Both the position numbers and the translations under genes were made by a program. From the NCBI GenBank assembly GCA_002293685.1, contig DBDS01000004.1, positions 34,479 through 98,478 of the forward strand: DNA of 64,000 nt, read 5' to 3'. Below the pieces are notes generated by a model. It was not told where the DNA came from. It made no database searches and saw only the letters and a program-made list of their open reading frames with translations. Numbering within the stretch: position 1 is the first letter of the stretch; every line of letters begins with the position of its first letter. The DNA is from Patescibacteria group bacterium UBA926. GTDB taxonomy: Bacteria; Patescibacteriota; Doudnabacteria; UBA920. Of this stretch, positions 3,270 through 59,669 are shown one piece after another.

Positions 3270-3617
3270 TTATTTGGAAAGATCTTTTACCATTTTATCG
3301 AAACCGGTTGGGGCTTTGATAGCCATCTCGGACAACATTTTTCGATTAACAGTAATGCCCTCAGTTTTTAGGACAGCTGCGAATTTGCTCCAAGTGGTGC
3401 CGTTTTCGCGAAGAGCTGCTCCCAAGCGCACTAGCCAAAGTGCTCGTTGATCACGCTTTTTGTTGCGTCGATCGCGGTAAGCGTAAGTTTCAGCTTTGAG
3501 TAAAGCTTCTTTAGCTTGGCGAAGGTTGGTAGAACGGCGGTTATCAAAACCTTTCGTTCGCTTTAATACATTTTTACGGCGCTTATTTCCGGAAACGCCT
3601 CGTTTGATTCTTGTCAT
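3270..3617 (-). CDS. rplT: 50S ribosomal protein L20
   Basis: 115-aa protein MTRIKRGVSGNKRRKNVLKRTKGF...RDRRNKKRDQRALWLVRLGAA, the conserved L20 sequence. Confidence 0.95.
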   Translation of the reverse strand: MTRIKRGVSGNKRRKNVLKRTKGFDNRRSTNLRQAKEALLKAETYAYRDRRNKKRDQRALWLVRLGAALRENGTTWSKFAAVLKTEGITVNRKMLSEMAIKAPTGFDKMVKDLSK

Positions 3618-3737: not shown

Positions 3738-3932
3738 TTACTTGTGAACAATAAGAGCTTTGATACGGTTGTTAGCAGGGCTAAGTTTAGAATCACGGCG
3801 CTTATTTTTAACGACTTTACCGGTTTCTCTTGTGTTGAAATGATCTTGTCCGCTTGTGCGATGCATGATCTTACCAGTTTTGGTCTTGCGGAAGCGCTTG
3901 GCGGTTCCTTGATGAGTTTTTAATTTGGGCAT
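3738..3932 (-). CDS. rpmI: 50S ribosomal protein L35
   Basis: 64-aa protein MPKLKTHQGTAKRFRKTKTGKIMHR..., the conserved L35 sequence. Confidence 0.95.
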   Translation of the reverse strand: MPKLKTHQGTAKRFRKTKTGKIMHRTSGQDHFNTRETGKVVKNKRRDSKLSPANNRIKALIVHK

Positions 3933-4024: not shown

Positions 4025-4606
4025 TCACTTAGTAGGGGCGATGGTCATGCCGATTGTGTTTCCAGCTTTCTTCGGCGGTACTTCAATCCGATAGGGGGCG
4101 GTTAAAGCTGCTTTGAAAGATTCCAGTTGCTGATGAGCAACATCGAGGAACGCTTGTTCGCGACCACGCATTCTTAGTTCCAGTTTAACCCAATCGCCGT
4201 CCAATAGGAATTCGTCGGCGCGCTTTGCTTTTGTAGCAATATCGTGGGCAGCAATTTTAGCACTTAAGCGAATCGTTTTGACTTCAACTTTCTTTACGCG
4301 CTTCTTTTGTTGCTGTTCCATTTTCTTTTGCTGATACCTGAACTTGTCGAAACTAATGATTTTGACAACAGGAGGCTTAGCCTGCGGAGATACTTCTACG
4401 AGGTCTAGTCCATGCTCTTCAGCTAAAGCAATAGCTTCTTTGATTGGCAAAATGCCCAATTGTTCACCTACATCATTGAGTAGTCGAACTTCTGGTGCAG
4501 TTATTTGCCGATTGATTCGGGTTTTTTGCAAAGTCTTTTCTAATAAATTTACCTGTAACTGAGCTAAATTATAGCTTTTCTTTAAGATTTTGTCAAAGAA
4601 GGTCAA
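4025..4606 (-). CDS. infC: translation initiation factor IF-3 (true start probably internal or non-AUG)
   Basis: Contains ITAPEVRLLNDVGEQLGI...LDLVEVSPQAKPPVVKIISFDKFRYQQKK. infC-rpmI-rplT gene order is conserved. The N-terminal ~30 aa of the called ORF are probably not translated. Confidence 0.9.
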   Translation of the reverse strand: MTFFDKILKKSYNLAQLQVNLLEKTLQKTRINRQITAPEVRLLNDVGEQLGILPIKEAIALAEEHGLDLVEVSPQAKPPVVKIISFDKFRYQQKKMEQQQKKRVKKVEVKTIRLSAKIAAHDIATKAKRADEFLLDGDWVKLELRMRGREQAFLDVAHQQLESFKAALTAPYRIEVPPKKAGNTIGMTIAPTK

Positions 4607-9474: not shown

Positions 9475-9860
9475 TGGTGGAGATGGCGGGAGTTAAACCC
9501 GCGTCCAAAACTAAGCAATCGAATCATTGGTCACAAGATTAGTCCGTTAAAATACCGACAGCCTCACAACGGACAACTAAGCAGTCGGGCGATATACTTA
9601 ATTTCGGTTGAATGATGTATATCAGACCATTCAACTATAGCTCCAAATAAACCAGCTGATCTACGGTCAGAGCGGACAGTAGGGCTGGGCGTTGCCTAAA
9701 GGTTAGGCGAACGCAGGTGCAAGTTGCTTGCTATTGAAAGCAGCAACGACCTTGTTCCATGCGTTTTCACGTATGATTGCTTGTAAGATTTACGAGCTTG
9801 CAAGCTGGCTCGTCTTGTATATAAAACGATTTTAAAGTCCTGTCAAAATCCGGCATCCCC
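9475..9860 (-). ncRNA. ssrA: transfer-messenger RNA (tmRNA, ssrA)
   Basis: The minus strand begins GGGGATGCCGGATTTTGAC and ends GGACGCGGGTTTAACTCCCGCCATCTCCACCA. The acceptor stem has a G3:U70 wobble pair. The candidate tag frame ...AWNKVVAAFNSKQLAPAFA ends with UAA inside a hairpin. smpB lies 2 kb away. Confidence 0.85.
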
Positions 9861-46023: not shown

Positions 46024-46111
<88 letters not shown>

Positions 46112-48505: not shown

Positions 48506-48598
<93 letters not shown>

Positions 48599-53188: not shown

Positions 53189-53737
53189 TCATTTTTTGGT
53201 GTTTGCGTTTGCCGCCGCTTTGGGTGCGGTCGGTGGTGACGCAACTGTTTCATTGGTTGGTGAGATCGGCGGCGAAGTTTCCGCTGGGGGCATAGCCTTA
53301 CCGTCAATCTGATTTTTCATTAAAATCGCCATCTTGTCAGCTGCCTTGGGCAGCAAGCCGATCCCTACTGTATCTGGGACGCCAGTTTCCGTGCTAGACA
53401 CAGACACACACCCTCCGGGGAGTAGACTGTCTGATTTGTCCAATGACCTGTAGTCCTCAGCCGTGACACAGAGCGTTACGGATCGTTTGTCCTCCGACCA
53501 TTTTGCTTTGGCTTCGTACCTGATCCAGCTTTCGGAGCTGTTGGTGAAGCCATTAGCTGCCATCGCTTGCTGCAGGGTGGCTTGAACCTGGTGGCTCAAG
53601 TTTTCTGCGTTTATATGACCACTACCAGAAAGGCTCCGGTAGTTTAGCGCTGCTTTACCAGTAGCGCTTGCGTCATTGCATGCCATCGAAGCAAAGCCTA
53701 AACCGATAACTACCATCAAAACTAGTAACTTTTTCAT
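53189..53737 (-). CDS. hypothetical lipoprotein
   Basis: Start taken at MKKLLVLMVVIGLGFASMAC (lipobox). Confidence 0.4.
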   Translation of the reverse strand: MKKLLVLMVVIGLGFASMACNDASATGKAALNYRSLSGSGHINAENLSHQVQATLQQAMAANGFTNSSESWIRYEAKAKWSEDKRSVTLCVTAEDYRSLDKSDSLLPGGCVSVSSTETGVPDTVGIGLLPKAADKMAILMKNQIDGKAMPPAETSPPISPTNETVASPPTAPKAAANANTKK

Positions 53738-53825
53738 AATATATTGTCCCTCACTATCAGATTTTCGAACTTGCCCAGTATACCAAAAACAGGCACTTTT
53801 GTCAATACCTGTTTTATGAATTATA

Positions 53826-55575: not shown

Positions 55576-56124
55576 TTAGAACTTTACTTCAACTGGTTGC
55601 TGCTCTGGCCCATTATCATCAATATCGAAGAATGCCCGCTTAGTGAAACCGAGCATCTGAGCAAATAAGTTAGTCGGGAACACTTCAATTTTAGTGTTGA
55701 AGTCACGAACATTACCATTATAGAAACGACGTGCGGCCTGAATCTTGTTTTCTGTATCCGTTAAATCATTTTGCAATTGCAAAAAGTTTTGGTTGGACTT
55801 TAAGTCTGGGTAGTTTTCAGCAACAGCAAACAAACTTTTCAAAGTTCCTGAAAGCATGTTTTCATCTTGCTGATGTTCTTGCACAGTCTGTGCGCCCATG
55901 GCTCGAGTACGAGCCTCAGTGACGCGTTCCAAAACACCAGATTCTTGTGCCGCGAAACCTTTAACAGTGTTTACAAGGTTTGGGATTAAGTCATAGCGAC
56001 GTTTAAGTTGAACCTCAATGTCTGCCCATGCTTCTTCCACACGATTGCGAGAACGAATTAAAGAGTTGTATACACCAACACCTATAATAAGTACCGCTAC
56101 GATAATTATTACAAAAATTAACAT
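55576..56124 (-). CDS. lemA: LemA family protein
   Basis: N-terminal TM helix and the conserved LemA core (YNSLIRSRNRVEEAWADIEVQLKRRYDLIPNLV). Confidence 0.85.
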   Translation of the reverse strand: MLIFVIIIVAVLIIGVGVYNSLIRSRNRVEEAWADIEVQLKRRYDLIPNLVNTVKGFAAQESGVLERVTEARTRAMGAQTVQEHQQDENMLSGTLKSLFAVAENYPDLKSNQNFLQLQNDLTDTENKIQAARRFYNGNVRDFNTKIEVFPTNLFAQMLGFTKRAFFDIDDNGPEQQPVEVKF

Positions 56125-56296
56125 AATTTCCTTTCTATTATTTATTACCGAAATTGGTTTGATAGTAACATTAGTATAGCAAAACCACTAGCTCAATTCT
56201 AGTTAAAATAGCACCTACTTTAATATGCTTTCGTCTGATAAGGTGCCTGCACTGCGAAGTCCACCAGTGGCGGACGTAGGGGTGTGGATAGCTGGA

Positions 56297-56325
56297 TTGA
56301 CACAGAGCGAGAAATTCAATATAAT
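56297..56325 (+). promoter_or_regulatory. consensus sigma70-type promoter TTGACA-N17-TATAAT
   Basis: Exact -35 and -10 hexamers with a 17-bp spacer. Confidence 0.55.
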
Positions 56326-56445
56326 TGCTCATATGAATTTATATCTGCACACAACCTGCGCAAACATTACTAAGGCGATTCGTTTTGCCTTTTTGCCTTT
56401 TGCGTTTTCAGGCGTCAGATATAGAGCATAATTTTTCTAGGAATT

Positions 56446-56482
56446 AACTCGCTATCTGGTCCGCCGGGTAGCGAGTTTTAAT
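56446..56482 (+). terminator. leader hairpin AACTCGCTA-loop-TAGCGAGTT plus TTTAATTTT (attenuator-like), 25 nt upstream of a strong RBS
   Basis: Read directly from the sequence. It sits ~120 nt downstream of the consensus promoter. Confidence 0.45.
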
Positions 56483-56505
56483 TTTAATTAGCAACGGAGG
56501 AAAAA

Positions 56506-56709
56506 ATGAAAAAGGATGAAGTTGAAAATTCTGACCCAAAAGTAGGTTTGGTTCAAACGATCAATTCCCACGGGTTTTTGGATAAAGGTGACGACTGTGA
56601 TCGCGCCATGATACTACAAGGCATCAGAGAACGCACATCCCAGCGTTTAGTGAGGAGATTCGCGGGCAAAGGGTTAAGACGAAGAATTCACACTCAGGAG
56701 GGTCAGTAA
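56506..56709 (+). CDS. hypothetical small protein 1 of a GC-rich three-gene cluster
   Basis: RBS AACGGAGGAAAAAATG. Local GC is ~50% versus ~38% in the flanks. Confidence 0.4.
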   Translation: MKKDEVENSDPKVGLVQTINSHGFLDKGDDCDRAMILQGIRERTSQRLVRRFAGKGLRRRIHTQEGQ

Positions 56710-56921
56710 TGGAAGGTAATTCTTGCGGCAAGGGCCATGTTGGCAATTCACGCTTACGCTTTACTAAGGAGCAGGCGGAGTCGGAAGCTGTTAAGCATCC
56801 AGCGGTCAATGATCATGGATTGTTAACAAAGCGATATCGGTTACAGAGTCGCTATGGGTTAGAGGTTGGAAAGAACAGCAAACAGGAGGTTGAAAATGAG
56901 CATTCGTCGAGAGAGTGGTAG
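56709..56921 (+). CDS. hypothetical small protein 2
   Basis: RBS AGGAGGGTCAGTAATG overlapping the upstream stop. Confidence 0.4.
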   Translation: MEGNSCGKGHVGNSRLRFTKEQAESEAVKHPAVNDHGLLTKRYRLQSRYGLEVGKNSKQEVENEHSSREW

Positions 56922-57135
56922 GCCGGGATTTGTTCGAAGTTCTGGCATGGAAGACTTGGTTGCCAAACCTGCCCAAGGTGTGGTCGGTATTGGTATCGAA
57001 GGATTAAGTCCGAGCGAAGTACAGGACATAGTAAATAGTCCAAATCGGATCGGACCGGATGAAGTGCGTCGTTACACCGATGAAGAAATACACCAATCAT
57101 GGGGTGCGGAGCGCAACTTCGGGGCATTGAAGTGA
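56896..57135 (+). CDS. hypothetical small protein 3
   Basis: RBS ACAGGAGGTTGAAAATG. It overlaps the 3' end of protein 2 in another frame. Confidence 0.4.
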   Translation: MSIRRESGRPGFVRSSGMEDLVAKPAQGVVGIGIEGLSPSEVQDIVNSPNRIGPDEVRRYTDEEIHQSWGAERNFGALK

Positions 57136-57155
57136 ACTTATGTTCATTGCATTAT

Positions 57156-57186
57156 AGCGCAGACTTTGTTCTGCGCTTTTCTATTT
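57156..57186 (+). terminator. intrinsic terminator AGCGCAG-ACTTTGTT-CTGCGCT plus TTTCTATTTT
   Basis: Perfect 7-bp stem plus T-run after the small-ORF cluster. Confidence 0.8.
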
Positions 57187-57208
57187 TATTTATTCCCTCT
57201 ATAATTTA

Positions 57209-57313
57209 CCCTGTTAAATATAGCTGAAATTAGCTAGTTTAGAAGACGTGTTTTGGTTTCGTAAAAGTGTTATAATTAACACATAAATCATAAATAATTT
57301 AACAAGGTAAATG
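57209..57313. repeat. ORF-less inverted-repeat module CCCTGTTAAATA ... ATTTAACAAGGTAAATG abutting the gatC start, with internal extended -10 TGTTATAAT
   Basis: Same half-sites as the GIY-YIG cassette. The right-hand half-site is degenerate by one base. TATAAT at 57271-57276. Confidence 0.7.
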
Positions 57314-57592
57314 TTAACCCCTGAAGAAGTAAGAAAAATCGCTCAATTAGCCCGAATTGAACTCCGTGAAGGAGAAGTTGAAAAGTTTCAGAAGGACTTG
57401 TCGTCAATTTTGGATTATGTTGAAGAGTTGAAAGCGGTTGATACCGACGGTTTGGATATTGTTTCCTCGGTGACAGGTTTAGAAAACGTTCAGCGACCAG
57501 ATAAAGCAGTGTTAATCGATTATCAAGAAGGCATTATGACAAATGCCCCTGAGCGAAAAGATCGTTATTATAAAGTGAAATCAATTTTGTAA
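57311..57592 (+). CDS. gatC: Asp/Glu-tRNA amidotransferase subunit C
   Basis: MLTPEEVRKIAQLARIELREGEVEKFQKDLSSILDYVEEL. Confidence 0.9.
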   Translation: MLTPEEVRKIAQLARIELREGEVEKFQKDLSSILDYVEELKAVDTDGLDIVSSVTGLENVQRPDKAVLIDYQEGIMTNAPERKDRYYKVKSIL

Positions 57593-59195: not shown

Positions 59196-59669
59196 ATGAA
59201 CAAGCCTTCAGCGATTACTAAAGGTATATTTATAATCTTAATGCTACTAATTGCAGCGTTTGCTTTATTGCCTTTATACTTGATTAAGCAAAACGTAACT
59301 GCTTTGGTTGATGGTCGTCAAATAGTAGGCGAAGTCATGAATGTTCAGACCCAGATTACTGGCAGTTGTTTTTCAGAAGTTGACTGCCGTTCAGATGTGA
59401 TTAAGCAGATAAAGTATTTTGATGATAATGGGAATGAACAGTTTTTTACAACTTCAGCTTATAGTAGTGTTTCTTTTCTGGGATTGTTTGATGAGGGTGA
59501 TAAAGTGAATTTAGTGGTGATTAATGAGGATTTTAGTAGTATTCAAGTGTATCTACCTTTTGTAACATGGGCTTACATTTTTCTACTTCTTGTGATTGTT
59601 GCTCTGGCTGTTAAAGGAGCAATTGCATTTTTACATCACAACAAGAACATACAAGGTAATCAAATATGA
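59196..59669 (+). CDS. hypothetical two-TM membrane protein inserted between gatA and gatB
   Basis: Overlapping stop/start codons on both sides (translationally coupled). Confidence 0.45.
   Translation: MNKPSAITKGIFIILMLLIAAFALLPLYLIKQNVTALVDGRQIVGEVMNVQTQITGSCFSEVDCRSDVIKQIKYFDDNGNEQFFTTSAYSSVSFLGLFDEGDKVNLVVINEDFSSIQVYLPFVTWAYIFLLLVIVALAVKGAIAFLHHNKNIQGNQI

What the first reader, a model, noticed from the sequence alone, without database searches (positions are those of the whole stretch)
56297..57186. Perfect consensus promoter, a ~175-nt leader ending in a terminator-like hairpin, then three small overlapping ORFs with canonical AGGAGG sites, in a GC-rich (~50%) patch
Seen in sequence:
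- TTGACA-N17-TATAAT lies at 56297-56325. Such an exact match is rare.
- The leader contains the hairpin AACTCGCTA...TAGCGAGTT plus a T-rich run (56446-56482), directly before the RBS of a 67-aa ORF.
- Two more small ORFs (70 and 79 aa) follow. Each has AGGAGG. The third overlaps the second out of frame.
- A strong terminator lies at 57156-57186.
- Base composition differs from the flanks.

Inference: a horizontally acquired small-protein operon under riboswitch or attenuator control, or an sRNA followed by small proteins.
Basis: partly seen in the sequence, partly recalled or inferred. Interest (0 to 1): 0.6.

Follow-up and report, generated by a model that had tools for sequence, protein, structure and literature searches.

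The report
Leaderless attenuator controlling a small-protein operon
In this Saccharibacteria (CPR) genome the "leader" is a tiny 32-codon gene that starts at the very first base of the transcript and folds, with the terminator after it, into a classic stall-sensing switch; this switch appears to gate three fast-evolving orphan small proteins that were recently swapped between two species.

Summary

Comparison with five other Saccharibacteria lineages at the same LemA–GatC slot shows what it is. The conserved unit is an upstream TGTGGATA box, the perfect promoter, and a 30-32-codon ORF whose ATG lies 6-8 nt after the -10 box (leaderless) and always ends ...RA-TAA. This ORF folds into a long hairpin. 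A strong intrinsic terminator follows 16-26 nt later.

The hairpin's 3' strand can instead pair with the terminator's 5' strand, and this pairing covaries across lineages. That is the 1:2 / 2:3 / 3:4 logic of a leader-peptide transcription attenuator. It matches no Rfam family and does not look like a riboswitch.

The cargo is variable: 3, 2 or 1 ORFs, or no cassette at all. ORF1-3 are real, fast-evolving orphan proteins. A ~470-nt cargo core is 99.6% identical between two species whose housekeeping genes are only 74-82% identical, which indicates recent exchange.

Verdict: a new variant of a known regulatory kind, with cargo function unknown and no expression data.

The parts
56283..56290 (+). 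Conserved upstream box TGTGGATA, 6-7 nt upstream of the -35 hexamer. Read on the other strand it is (C/T/A)TATCCACA, which resembles a DnaA box. Presumed operator for an unknown factor.
   Evidence: Present at the same position in all six lineages. The box-plus--35 combination is unique in the window, 0 expected. DnaA-box-like 9-mers as such occur at chance frequency, 21 found against 16.9 expected, so the factor's identity is open.
56297..56325 (+). Sigma-70-type promoter, perfect TTGACA-17-TATAAT.
   Evidence: Both hexamers and the 17-nt spacing are kept in all six lineages (one lineage has TTGACT) while the spacer sequence is free to vary.
56333..56431 (+). Leaderless uORF (leader peptide) of 32 codons plus TAA: MNLYLHTTCANITKAIRFAFLPFAFSGVRYRA. 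The ATG begins 7 nt after the end of the -10 box.
   Evidence: Open in all six lineages at 30-32 codons. The ATG is 6-8 nt after the -10 box (11 nt in L042). The peptide always ends RA-TAA. Indels inside the ORF are in-frame. No other frame stays open in all six lineages; the two other sense frames carry 1-4 stops in every lineage. The chance of staying open is 0.12-0.20 per lineage. Indels of 1 and 4 nt appear immediately after the stop codon.
56332..56350 (+). Region 1: 5' strand of the long hairpin. It includes the start codon.
   Evidence: Pairs with 56414-56430 in the MFE fold. The helix is kept with compensatory changes across lineages.
56372..56400 (+). Apical hairpin AAGGCGA-UUCGUU-UUGCCUU followed by a U-run. 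Candidate RNA-polymerase pause hairpin. It encodes the K-A...F-A-F-L part of the peptide.
   Evidence: 7 pairs, 97.6% of cells paired. In L036 a double compensatory change (GGC/GCC to GAC/GUC) alters two amino acids, which points to selection at the RNA level.
56414..56430 (+). Region 2: 3' strand of the long hairpin, covering the last codons and the stop codon. It is also the 5' half of the antiterminator.
   Evidence: Pairs with region 1. Alternatively, 56415-56421 pairs with 56453-56459 and 56424-56426 pairs with 56448-56450.
56440..56487 (+). Intrinsic terminator (regions 3 and 4). The stem is 56447-56459 with 56464-56476, extended by A/U pairs, followed by UUUUAAUUUU.
   Evidence: -23.5 kcal/mol. 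Kept in all six lineages with 5 doubly compensated pairs and 98.5% of cells paired.
56506..56709 (+). ORF1, 67 aa. The C-terminal half is a basic helix. It is an optional member of the cargo.
   Evidence: 4 of 4 substitutions against strain L001 are synonymous. A homolog in L032 is 46% identical at the amino-acid level. ORF1 is absent in L034 and L036. AF2 predicts a single helix at residues 30-52 with mean pLDDT 65. No family match.
56709..56921 (+). ORF2, 70 aa, family motif MEG...G.GH.G...R....Q....Y..Q...G.
   Evidence: Synonymous third-position changes shift phase exactly at the ORF1/ORF2 junction. Homologs exist in L032, L036 and L034. No Pfam, NCBIfam, PHROG, PADLOC or PDB match.
56896..57135 (+). 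ORF3, 79 aa, family motif GFV.. G...GL(S/T)..(D/E)(V/I)..I(V/I).S..R..P(D/E)...EIH(Q/R)SFG.
   Evidence: Outside the identical core, the comparison with species 2 shows 7 synonymous and 4 non-synonymous codon changes, and the stop codon is kept. Only 4 cluster representatives exist among 1.84 billion proteins. AF2 gives pLDDT 56, mostly coil.
56565..57038 (+). Recently exchanged cargo core. It is about 99.6% identical to species 2 (GCA_964597895.1).
   Evidence: 2-3 differences in about 474 nt, while LemA, GatC and GatA are 78, 82 and 74% identical and the leader is 67% identical. The closer strain L001 has 18 differences inside this core.
57156..57186 (+). Operon terminator: AGCGCAGA-CTTTGT-TCTGCGCT followed by TTTTCTATTTT.
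   Evidence: A hairpin plus CTTTTCTTTTT is kept in every cassette, with different stem sequences.

Best explanation
This is a ribosome-mediated (leader-peptide) transcription attenuator built on a leaderless mRNA. It gates a small operon of orphan proteins.

Proposed sequence of events. Transcription starts from a consensus promoter at or within about 2 nt of the AUG of a 32-codon uORF (56333-56431). The whole uORF can fold into a long hairpin, region 1:2, that buries its own start codon. A strong intrinsic terminator, region 3:4, follows 16 nt after the stop codon and lies 18 nt before the ORF1 ribosome-binding site.

Three outcomes follow:
- If no ribosome loads, 1:2 and 3:4 form and transcription ends as a ~150-nt RNA.
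- If a ribosome loads and runs to the stop codon, it covers region 2, 3:4 forms, and transcription again ends.
- If a ribosome loads but is slowed in the first two-thirds of the uORF, region 1 is masked. Region 2 then pairs with region 3 (CAGAUAU:AUAUCUG plus GAG:CUC), the terminator cannot form, and ORF1-3 are transcribed.

The output is therefore 'translation elongation is limiting', for example when aminoacyl-tRNA is scarce in an epibiont that depends on its host for amino acids.

What is shown: the conserved uORF, the conserved structures, the alternative pairing, and the coding status of the cargo.

What is inferred: the transcription start site, translation of the uORF, stalling as the signal, the apical hairpin plus U-run acting as a pause site, and the Phe-rich centre (FAFLPF) holding the control codons.

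Cargo function is unknown. My best guess is starvation- or stress-induced small proteins that act as a complex, because the ORFs are translationally coupled.
For: The regulatory module is conserved in six lineages at the same locus although the cargo differs. The module is the TGTGGATA box, TTGACA/T-17-TATAAT, the uORF and the terminator.

The uORF stays open in 6 of 6 lineages. Its ATG is 6-8 nt after the -10 box (11 nt in one lineage), so there is no room for a Shine-Dalgarno sequence. It ends in the same RA-TAA everywhere. Indels inside it are in-frame, whereas indels just after the stop are not.

Each lineage folds into the same long hairpin plus terminator (z = -5.0 and -3.9).

RNAalifold on four lineages predicts 46 pairs, 10 of them compensated.

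A covariance model built from four lineages finds the two left-out lineages at the expected place: L034 at 82 bits and L042 at 26 bits, E 0.005. It finds nothing in the cassette-less loci.

On the six-lineage alignment, 92.3% of cells are paired against 37-49% when partners are slid. 20 of 46 pairs change on both sides. 0 of 500 shuffles reach the observed values.

The antiterminator 2:3 is predicted in the window, L019, L032 and L034 (z = -1.8 to -4.4) and is weaker in L036. It covaries with the terminator stem (coordinates).

Precedent exists in Actinobacteria. In C. diphtheriae the ilvB leader peptide has its TSS at the start codon (PMC5784534). In C. glutamicum ilvBNC, hairpin H1 blocks leaderless initiation and acts as an anti-antiterminator (PMC11857589). 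Mycobacterial leaderless poly-Cys sORFs attenuate downstream genes (10.1101/834739).

The cargo is coding. Synonymous-biased substitutions are in phase with each ORF, and homologs exist in other lineages.
Against: There are no transcript, TSS or ribosome-profiling data.

Only six lineages are available, and two of them (L019 and L032) are 82% identical in this segment.

The pair-count alignment was fitted to the model, which biases it towards the structure.

The uORF has no tandem run of one amino acid's codons. Its Phe richness (3-5 Phe in 5 of 6 lineages, 1 in L042) could simply be a by-product of the U-run that follows the apical hairpin.

The peptide is poorly conserved outside residues encoded by helix nucleotides, so its being an open frame could in principle be incidental.

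The cargo is not an amino-acid biosynthesis operon, so the physiological logic is conjecture.

The L036 antiterminator is weak (z = -1.0), and L042's antiterminator was judged by eye only.

In L042 the ATG is 11 nt from the -10 box, so that transcript may have a short leader.
Confidence: 0.6

Rival explanations
1. The 5' unit is a gene in its own right. A very strongly expressed ~150-nt RNA would encode a functional 32-aa peptide and/or act in trans as an sRNA, and would end at its own terminator. The downstream small ORFs would be expressed only by leaky read-through, with no regulated decision.
For: The promoter is perfect and the terminator is strong. The unit is conserved whatever the cargo, including the unrelated 145-aa cargo in L042. 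Attenuator-derived RNAs and leader peptides with trans functions are documented in Sinorhizobium (rnTrpL and peTrpL; PMC6614838 and PMC7298713, listed).
Against: The unit is never found without downstream cargo; loci lacking cargo also lack the unit. The covarying 2:3 alternative pairing has no role in a plain terminator. The peptide sequence is weakly conserved, and a compensatory RNA change overrides two amino acids in L036.
Confidence: 0.2
2. The leader is a ligand-binding riboswitch. The long hairpin would be an aptamer whose P1 stem is stabilised by a metabolite, which would favour the terminator.
For: The layout is a structured ~100-nt domain followed by a terminator, with a P1 3' strand that can switch to an antiterminator. 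The structure covaries.
Against: There is no Rfam hit at gathering score or at E<=10. The fold is an unbranched irregular hairpin. Its internal loops are not conserved in sequence; the invariant columns lie in the helices, the ATG and the TAA. The reading frame is preserved with in-frame indels in 6 of 6 lineages, which a riboswitch does not require.
Confidence: 0.07
3. The uORF encodes a type I-toxin-like small hydrophobic peptide, and its mRNA is kept inert by 5'-3' pairing.
For: The peptide is ~30 aa with a hydrophobic centre and a basic C-terminus. The start codon is sequestered in a long-range helix.
Against: The hydrophobic stretch is short and is interrupted by a conserved Lys/Arg, so there is no clean 18-20-residue TM segment. 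No conserved antisense promoter or antisense RNA was seen. A consensus promoter on an unopposed toxin is implausible. The peptide sequence is poorly conserved.
Confidence: 0.05
4. The GC-rich region is one large structured non-coding RNA, and the three ORFs are spurious.
For: The patch is GC-rich in an AT-rich genome. The core is almost invariant between two species, including at synonymous sites. AF2 confidence for ORF1 and ORF3 is low.
Against: No Rfam family matches. Substitutions in strain L001 fall on third codon positions and change phase at the ORF1/ORF2 junction. In L032 the same three ORFs exist at only 57-62% nt identity, with their starts, stops, RBSs and overlaps kept. The ORF3 family is recovered at 37-57% amino-acid identity. 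The near-identity is confined to one pair of lineages, so it reflects recent transfer rather than constraint.
Confidence: 0.02

Closest known systems
Leaderless leader-peptide attenuators of Corynebacterium (ilvBNC, also trp and leu leaders)
   Same: The transcript starts at the leader peptide's start codon. The first hairpin includes the start region and acts as an anti-antiterminator. The logic is three hairpins, and an intrinsic terminator lies ahead of the structural genes (PMC5784534, PMC11857589).
   Different: The Corynebacterium leaders are 13-16 codons long with runs of the cognate amino acid, and they control that amino acid's biosynthesis genes. Here the uORF is 30-32 codons with no clean codon run, and the entire ORF forms the 1:2 hairpin. 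The cargo is orphan small proteins. The host is a Saccharibacterium, a group generally described as lacking amino-acid biosynthesis (my own knowledge, not tested here).
Classical enterobacterial attenuators (trpL, pheL, ilvL, hisL, thrL)
   Same: Mutually exclusive 1:2, 2:3 and 3:4 pairings. Region 2 mimics region 4. There is a pause-hairpin-like element, and the stop codon lies shortly before the terminator. E. coli ilvL is also 32 codons (from memory).
   Different: Those leaders use a Shine-Dalgarno-led uORF and 2-7 tandem control codons placed in region 1. The Rfam leader families (Trp, Phe, Leu, His, Thr) do not match this sequence.
Mycobacterial polycysteine leaderless short ORFs ('Cys ribulon')
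   Same: A leaderless short ORF is the first cistron of an operon, and ribosome stalling within it remodels downstream RNA structure to switch on the 3' genes (10.1101/834739).
   Different: [quoted passage not shown] Here a canonical intrinsic terminator sits between the uORF and the cargo, and the ORF1 RBS is not sequestered. The mycobacterial sORFs carry Cys runs and regulate Cys metabolism.
Sinorhizobium trpL attenuator with trans-acting products (rnTrpL sRNA, peTrpL peptide)
   Same: The terminated attenuator RNA and its peptide can be abundant stable products of a strong promoter. This could equally apply to the ~150-nt RNA and the 32-aa peptide here.
   Different: There is no evidence here for any trans target, and there is no sequence similarity.

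Membership tests
Ribosome-mediated (leader-peptide) transcription attenuator | A short ORF lies in the 5' leader, upstream of the regulated genes. | tested here: met
   A 30-32-codon ORF is conserved and open in 6 of 6 lineages, with in-frame indels only.
Ribosome-mediated (leader-peptide) transcription attenuator | An intrinsic terminator lies between the short ORF and the first structural gene. | tested here: met
   A 13-14-bp G+C-rich stem plus a U-tract begins 16-26 nt after the uORF stop in all lineages.
Ribosome-mediated (leader-peptide) transcription attenuator | Mutually exclusive pairings 1:2, 2:3 (antiterminator) and 3:4 (terminator). | tested here: met
   1:2 and 3:4 appear in the MFE folds. 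2:3 is predicted with z = -1.8 to -4.4 in four lineages and covaries with the terminator stem. It is weak in L036 and was judged by eye in L042.
Ribosome-mediated (leader-peptide) transcription attenuator | Tandem control codons for the sensed amino acid, placed so that a stalled ribosome masks region 1. | tested here: not met
   There is no codon run in region 1. The only enrichment is Phe at 3-5 per peptide in 5 of 6 lineages, located in the centre (codons 18-25) and confounded with the U-run. L042 has 1 Phe.
Ribosome-mediated (leader-peptide) transcription attenuator | The regulated genes belong to the pathway of the sensed amino acid. | tested here: not met
   The cargo is orphan small proteins with no Pfam, NCBIfam, PHROG, PADLOC or PDB match. 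gatCAB downstream has its own promoter, located after a terminator.
Ribosome-mediated (leader-peptide) transcription attenuator | Read-through depends on translation of the leader peptide. | not testable with these tools
   Needs reporter fusions, uORF start-codon mutants, and RNA-seq or term-seq.
Leaderless mRNA | The transcription start site is at the start codon, or within a few nt of it. | tested here: inconclusive
   The gap between the end of the -10 box and the ATG is 7, 7, 7, 8 and 6 nt in five lineages and 11 nt in L042. This is consistent with a 5'-terminal AUG, but no TSS data exist.
Riboswitch | A match to a described aptamer class. | tested here: not met
   Rfam 15 gives no hit in 56100-57320 at gathering score, and only two chance-level hits on the opposite strand at E 4.5 and 9.5.
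Riboswitch | Conserved unpaired nucleotides that form a ligand pocket. | tested here: not met
   The loop and junction sequences differ between lineages. The invariant columns lie in the helices, the ATG and the TAA.
Rfam amino-acid leader families (Trp, Phe, Leu, His, Thr leaders) | A covariance-model match. | tested here: not met
   Not listed even at E<=10.
Type I toxin-antitoxin | A small hydrophobic toxin with a full TM segment plus a cis- or trans-encoded antisense RNA. | tested here: not met
   The hydrophobic core is about 12-14 residues and is interrupted by K/R. No conserved antisense promoter was found in the scan. The antisense covariance-model hit only reflects the palindromic hairpin.
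DnaA-box-regulated promoter | A TTATCCACA-type box conserved next to the promoter. | tested here: inconclusive
   (C/A/T)TATCCACA is present in 6 of 6 lineages and is an exact consensus in L042. Such 9-mers with one mismatch are no more frequent than chance in the window. DnaA binding was not tested.

The most novel reading that the evidence does not exclude
Saccharibacteria, which rely on a host bacterium for amino acids, use a long leaderless uORF as a general sensor of translation elongation rate rather than of one amino acid. This sensor switches on a plug-in slot of fast-evolving, horizontally exchanged small proteins. The slot holds 3, 2 or 1 ORFs, or unrelated cargo, depending on the lineage. 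These proteins would act in starvation, dormancy or host interaction. This would be the first ribosome-mediated attenuator described in the Candidate Phyla Radiation, and an attenuator uncoupled from biosynthetic genes.
Probability: 0.25. Interest if true: 0.7.

Novelty: new variant of a known kind. Interest (0 to 1): 0.55.

Why it matters
Gene regulation in CPR/Patescibacteria is almost unexplored, and most of their small ORFs are unannotated or wrongly annotated. Here, gene callers either miss the uORF or over-extend it to a 68-aa ORF that starts upstream of the promoter.

A conserved, structurally well-supported attenuator gives three things:
- a concrete and testable cis-regulatory element in this group;
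- evidence that leaderless translation may be used for regulation outside Actinobacteria, Deinococcus and archaea;
- a marker (the covariance model) for finding condition-specific cargo genes.

The cargo itself is of interest. It is a clade-restricted family of orphan small proteins that evolves much faster than its neighbours, yet was recently exchanged almost intact between two species. That pattern suggests selection acting on the cargo, of a kind more often seen with conflict or host-interaction genes.

Tried and rejected
- Rfam at gathering score and at E<=10 gave nothing in the region.
- Pfam, NCBIfam, PHROGs and PADLOC on ORF1-3 gave only noise. The HTH_29 hit on ORF1 had E 0.05. AF2 then showed a single helix in ORF1, not an HTH.
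- Profile searches of the ORF2 and ORF3 families against PDB sequences gave nothing; the best E-value was 0.17.
- AF2 on ORF3 gave pLDDT 56, so I ran no fold search because it would be meaningless.
- ORF2 and ORF3 are not paralogs of each other (hhalign probability 0.2%).
- I suspected hypervariability because all 10 'mismatches' of L011 fell inside the region. They turned out to be a masked run of N.
- A mobile-element or phage origin for the core is not supported. Viral contigs gave no protein or DNA match. The two metagenome scans were empty. The genome scan returned only species 2.
- RNAalifold on plain MAFFT alignments of all six leaders recovered only the apical hairpin, because the outer helices shift register. 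I solved this by building a covariance model from four lineages.
- The DnaA-box reading of TGTGGATA is kept only as a lead, because the motif is not enriched in the window.
- A second promoter between the uORF and ORF1 was considered. The only candidate is a 9/12 match at 56405-56432, and it lies upstream of the terminator, so it would not bypass it.
- Polymorphisms in near-duplicate contigs were too few to be informative.
Full report
**1. The observation**

- TTGACA-17-TATAAT lies at 56297-56325. Exact matches occur twice in the 64-kb window against 0.05 expected.
- A 13-14-bp G+C-rich hairpin followed by TTTTAATTTT lies at 56446-56487.
- ORF1 (56506-56709, 67 aa), ORF2 (56709-56921, 70 aa) and ORF3 (56896-57135, 79 aa) each have GGAGG or AGGAGG 5-7 nt before the ATG. 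ORF2 starts in the TAATG that ends ORF1. ORF3 overlaps ORF2 by 26 nt.
- A terminator lies at 57156-57177.
- The cargo ORFs are 47.8% GC, in the top 0.9% of 630-nt windows of a 40.1% GC window. The leader is ordinary at 39.4%.

**2. Context**

The window comes from a small-genome Patescibacteria/Saccharibacteria organism. Identical sequence occurs in GCA_002293775.1 and in many metagenome contigs, and a strain variant occurs on an 852-kb contig of GCA_022842405.1. The element lies between lemA (55576-56124, minus strand, followed by an HtpX-like M48 peptidase) and gatC-gatA-gatB (from 57311).

**3. Not a known RNA, not a known protein**

Rfam 15 reports nothing here at gathering thresholds. At E<=10 it gives only two chance hits on the opposite strand. 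ORF1-3 have no significant match in Pfam, NCBIfam, PHROGs or PADLOC. Profiles of ORF2 and ORF3 have no PDB relative.

**4. The ORFs are genes**

Against the strain variant L001 there are 26 substitutions in 1186 nt:
- ORF1: 4 substitutions, all synonymous third-position changes.
- ORF2: 6 synonymous and 7 non-synonymous codon changes.
- ORF3: no changes.

The phase of the third-position changes shifts exactly at the ORF1/ORF2 junction.

A second species (GCA_964597895.1 and Logan contigs, L018-L031) has the same 67/70/79-aa arrangement. Outside the identical core its ORF3 3' end shows 7 synonymous and 4 non-synonymous codon changes, with the same stop.

A third lineage (L032) has clear homologs of all three ORFs at 46-52% amino-acid identity, with the same TAATG junction and an overlapping ORF3 start.

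An exhaustive phmmer search of 1.84 billion representatives finds only four ORF3-family clusters, all 77-83 aa long, at 95, 57, 40 and 37% identity. ORF2 and ORF3 are unrelated to each other. AF2 without a deep alignment gives low confidence: ORF3 has pLDDT 56 and is mostly coil, and ORF1 has pLDDT 65 with a single helix at residues 30-52. These are therefore clade-restricted orphan small proteins.

**5. The slot is variable; the regulatory module is the constant**

I used LemA, which is 80-95% identical across many Saccharibacteria, to fetch syntenic loci.

| Locus | What lies between LemA and GatC |
|---|---|
| L032 | ORF1, ORF2 and ORF3 homologs |
| L036 | ORF2- and ORF3-like only |
| L034 | an ORF2-like ORF plus a Cys-rich 66-aa ORF |
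| L042 | a single unrelated 145-aa ORF |
| L038 (complete 943-kb genome) | no cassette; lemA and gatC are 116 bp apart |
| L041 | no cassette; lemA and gatC are 67 bp apart |
| L040 | different neighbour upstream of lemA; no gatC |

Every cassette, whatever its cargo, begins with the same module:
- TGTGGATA, 6-7 nt upstream of the -35 hexamer;
- TTGACA(T)-17-TATAAT with a free spacer sequence;
- a leader of about 180-210 nt with the blocks (C/T)ATATGA, AAGGCRA-loop-TTGCCTTTTT, AGAGCATAA, and ACTCGC...GCGAGTTTT;
- then GGAGG and the first cargo ORF.

**6. The 'leader' contains a leaderless short ORF**

The invariant ATG lies 7, 7, 7, 8 and 6 nt after the -10 hexamer in five lineages and 11 nt after it in L042. 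This is where transcription should start and leaves no room for a Shine-Dalgarno sequence.

From that ATG a frame of 30-32 codons is open in all six lineages and always ends ...RA-TAA within the invariant AGAGCATAA:
- window: MNLYLHTTCANITKAIRFAFLPFAFSGVRYRA (56333-56431)
- L019: MIQSWHAIYTLVIKATCFAFLTFVVAPARVRA
- L032: MNLSWHVIYTTIMKATCFAFLAFVIAPARVRA
- L034: MNFASLHQICANMIKAILFAFLPFEVSKIRA
- L036: MNFTWHQITNICTKTTSFVFFLFDNARISVRA
- L042: MRTNWYQIRILCTKAIFMVILPLRLEAVRA

The two other sense frames carry 1-4 stops in every lineage, and no reverse frame stays open in all six. The chance of the frame staying open is 0.12-0.20 per lineage. Length differences inside the ORF are multiples of three. 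Immediately after the stop codon, indels of 1 and 4 nt appear. Gene callers sometimes report a 68-aa ORF at 56225-56431; this is the same frame over-extended upstream past the promoter.

**7. RNA structure**

In each lineage the whole uORF folds into one long irregular hairpin whose base pairs the start-codon region with the stop-codon region. A strong terminator follows 16-26 nt after the stop (z = -5.0 and -3.9 against shuffles).
- RNAalifold on four lineages gives 46 pairs, 10 of which keep pairing through changes on both sides.
- A covariance model built from those four lineages finds the two lineages not used to build it (L034 at 82 bits, L042 at 26 bits, E about 0.005) at the expected positions. 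It finds no hit in the cassette-less loci and no second copy in the window.
- On the six-lineage alignment, 92.3% of cells pair, against 37-49% with slid partners. 20 of 46 pairs show double changes. None of 500 shuffles reaches the observed values. The caveat is that this alignment was fitted to the model.
- In L036 a compensatory change in the apical hairpin (GGC/GCC to GAC/GUC) changes two amino acids. The RNA structure is therefore selected in its own right.

**8. Alternative pairing**

The 3' strand of the long hairpin is region 2 (56414-56430). It can instead pair with the 5' strand of the terminator, region 3. In the window, 56415-56421 pairs with 56453-56459 and 56424-56426 pairs with 56448-56450, at -17.2 kcal/mol for the local fold.

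This antiterminator is predicted in the window, L019, L032 and L034 (z = -1.8, -2.7, -2.6 and -4.4) and is weaker in L036. It tracks lineage-specific changes in the terminator stem:
- window: CAGAUA:UAUCUG
- L019: GCCAG:CUGGC plus GAGC:GCUC
- L034: UCCAAGAU:AUCUUGGA
- L042 (by eye): CAGU:ACUG plus GAG:CUC

So region 2 mimics region 4 and region 1 mimics region 3. This is the signature of a 1:2 / 2:3 / 3:4 attenuator.

**9. Mechanism proposed**

What is shown is the anatomy. The rest is inferred.
- A 70S ribosome must load on the 5'-terminal AUG before region 2 is transcribed and buries it. The apical hairpin plus U-run (56372-56400) is a plausible pause site that gives time for this.
- With no ribosome, or with a ribosome that runs to the stop codon and covers region 2, the terminator forms and a ~150-nt RNA is released.
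- With a ribosome slowed in the first two-thirds of the uORF, region 1 is masked and region 2 captures region 3. Polymerase then reads into ORF1-3.

The terminator lies 18 nt before the ORF1 RBS. No promoter candidate lies downstream of the terminator, so the cargo depends on read-through.

There is no run of one codon. The Phe-rich centre (FAFLPF, 3-5 Phe in five of six lineages) is a candidate control segment but is confounded with the U-run. A general elongation-rate sensor is equally possible.

**10. Comparison with known systems**

Leaderless leader-peptide attenuators are documented in Actinobacteria:
- C. diphtheriae ilvB leader, with its TSS at the start codon (PMC5784534);
- C. glutamicum ilvBNC, a three-hairpin model in which H1 blocks leaderless initiation and acts as an anti-antiterminator (PMC11857589);
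- mycobacterial leaderless poly-Cys sORFs, which act on downstream RBS structure (10.1101/834739).

The present element shares the architecture but fails two classical criteria: tandem control codons and a biosynthetic cargo. It is in a phylum for which my two literature searches turned up no such element. I therefore say it works like a leader-peptide attenuator and call it a new variant, not a member of a described family.

**11. The near-identical core**

By flanking genes, species 2 (L019) and L032 are about equally distant from the window, yet the cargo tells a different story.

| Segment | window vs L019 (nt identity) | window vs L032 (nt identity) |
|---|---|---|
| LemA | 78% | 85% |
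| GatC | 82% | 80% |
| GatA | 74% | 76% |
| uORF + terminator | 67% | 74% |
| ORF1 | 91% | 62% |
| ORF2 | 99% | 57% |
| ORF3 | 95% | 60% |

Positions 56565-57038 differ from L019 at only 2-3 sites. The closer strain L001 has 18 differences inside that core, so this is not nucleotide-level constraint. It is a recent homologous replacement between lineages.

The cargo's GC3 (0.42-0.49) fits L019's genes (0.44-0.45) better than the window's flanking genes (0.33-0.36). This hints at import into the window lineage, although the cargo is somewhat GC-rich in every lineage. The core was not found in viral contigs or elsewhere.

**12. Upstream box**

TGTGGATA (56283-56290) is conserved in position in 6 of 6 lineages. 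On the other strand it reads as a DnaA-box-like (C/A/T)TATCCACA, which is exact in L042. Such 9-mers occur at chance frequency in the window, so the binding factor is unknown.

**13. Verdict**

It is best explained as a leaderless uORF-dependent transcription attenuator (confidence about 0.6) in front of a variable, fast-evolving and recently exchanged small-protein cassette of unknown function. No expression data were available, so the transcription start site, uORF translation and regulated read-through remain to be shown.

Noticed in passing
window 4568-4596 (- strand), genes 4025-4606, 3738-3932, 3270-3617 (-): The only other perfect TTGACA-17-TATAAT in the window drives infC (IF3, apparently with a non-ATG start), rpmI (L35) and rplT (L20). 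Perfect-consensus promoters in this genome therefore mark very highly expressed units.
   Followed up: partly
window 9475-9860 (-); 46024-46111 (-); 48506-48598 (-): tmRNA (112 bits) and two tRNA-Ser genes (anticodons TGA and GCT).
   Followed up: no
window 53343-53772, compared with L001/L007: The strain variant GCA_022842405.1 is a recombination mosaic relative to the window. One stretch, inside a gene of 184 versus 225 aa, is only about 62% identical, while neighbouring segments are 99-100% identical.
   Followed up: no
window 59196-59669 (+), between gatA and gatB: A small hydrophobic ORF (157 aa) is wedged between gatA and gatB, and it is highly variable across lineages. Depending on the lineage it is 100, 102, 140, 157, 178 or 219 aa, 663 aa in L001, or absent.
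   Followed up: no
window 56225-56431 (+): Gene callers in several assemblies annotate a 68-aa ORF here. It is the 32-codon uORF frame over-extended upstream through the promoter, and it is not conserved in other lineages.
   Followed up: yes
L011/L016, equivalent to window 57047-57056: A 10-nt run of N in a JGI contig looked like a cluster of mismatches confined to this region. It is a masking artefact, not variation.
   Followed up: yes
window 56811-56815 (ORF2 codons 35-36, around a GATC site): Three adjacent positions are polymorphic among species 2 contigs from different samples, inside the otherwise invariant core. This is a small mutational or selective hot spot.
   Followed up: no
L038 3885-4000 and L041 3934-4000 (cassette-less lemA-gatC gaps): L038 keeps a TTTTCTTTTT tract just upstream of the gatC promoter. 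It resembles the U-tract of the cassette's final terminator, which suggests the cassette was lost by deletion rather than never acquired.
   Followed up: no
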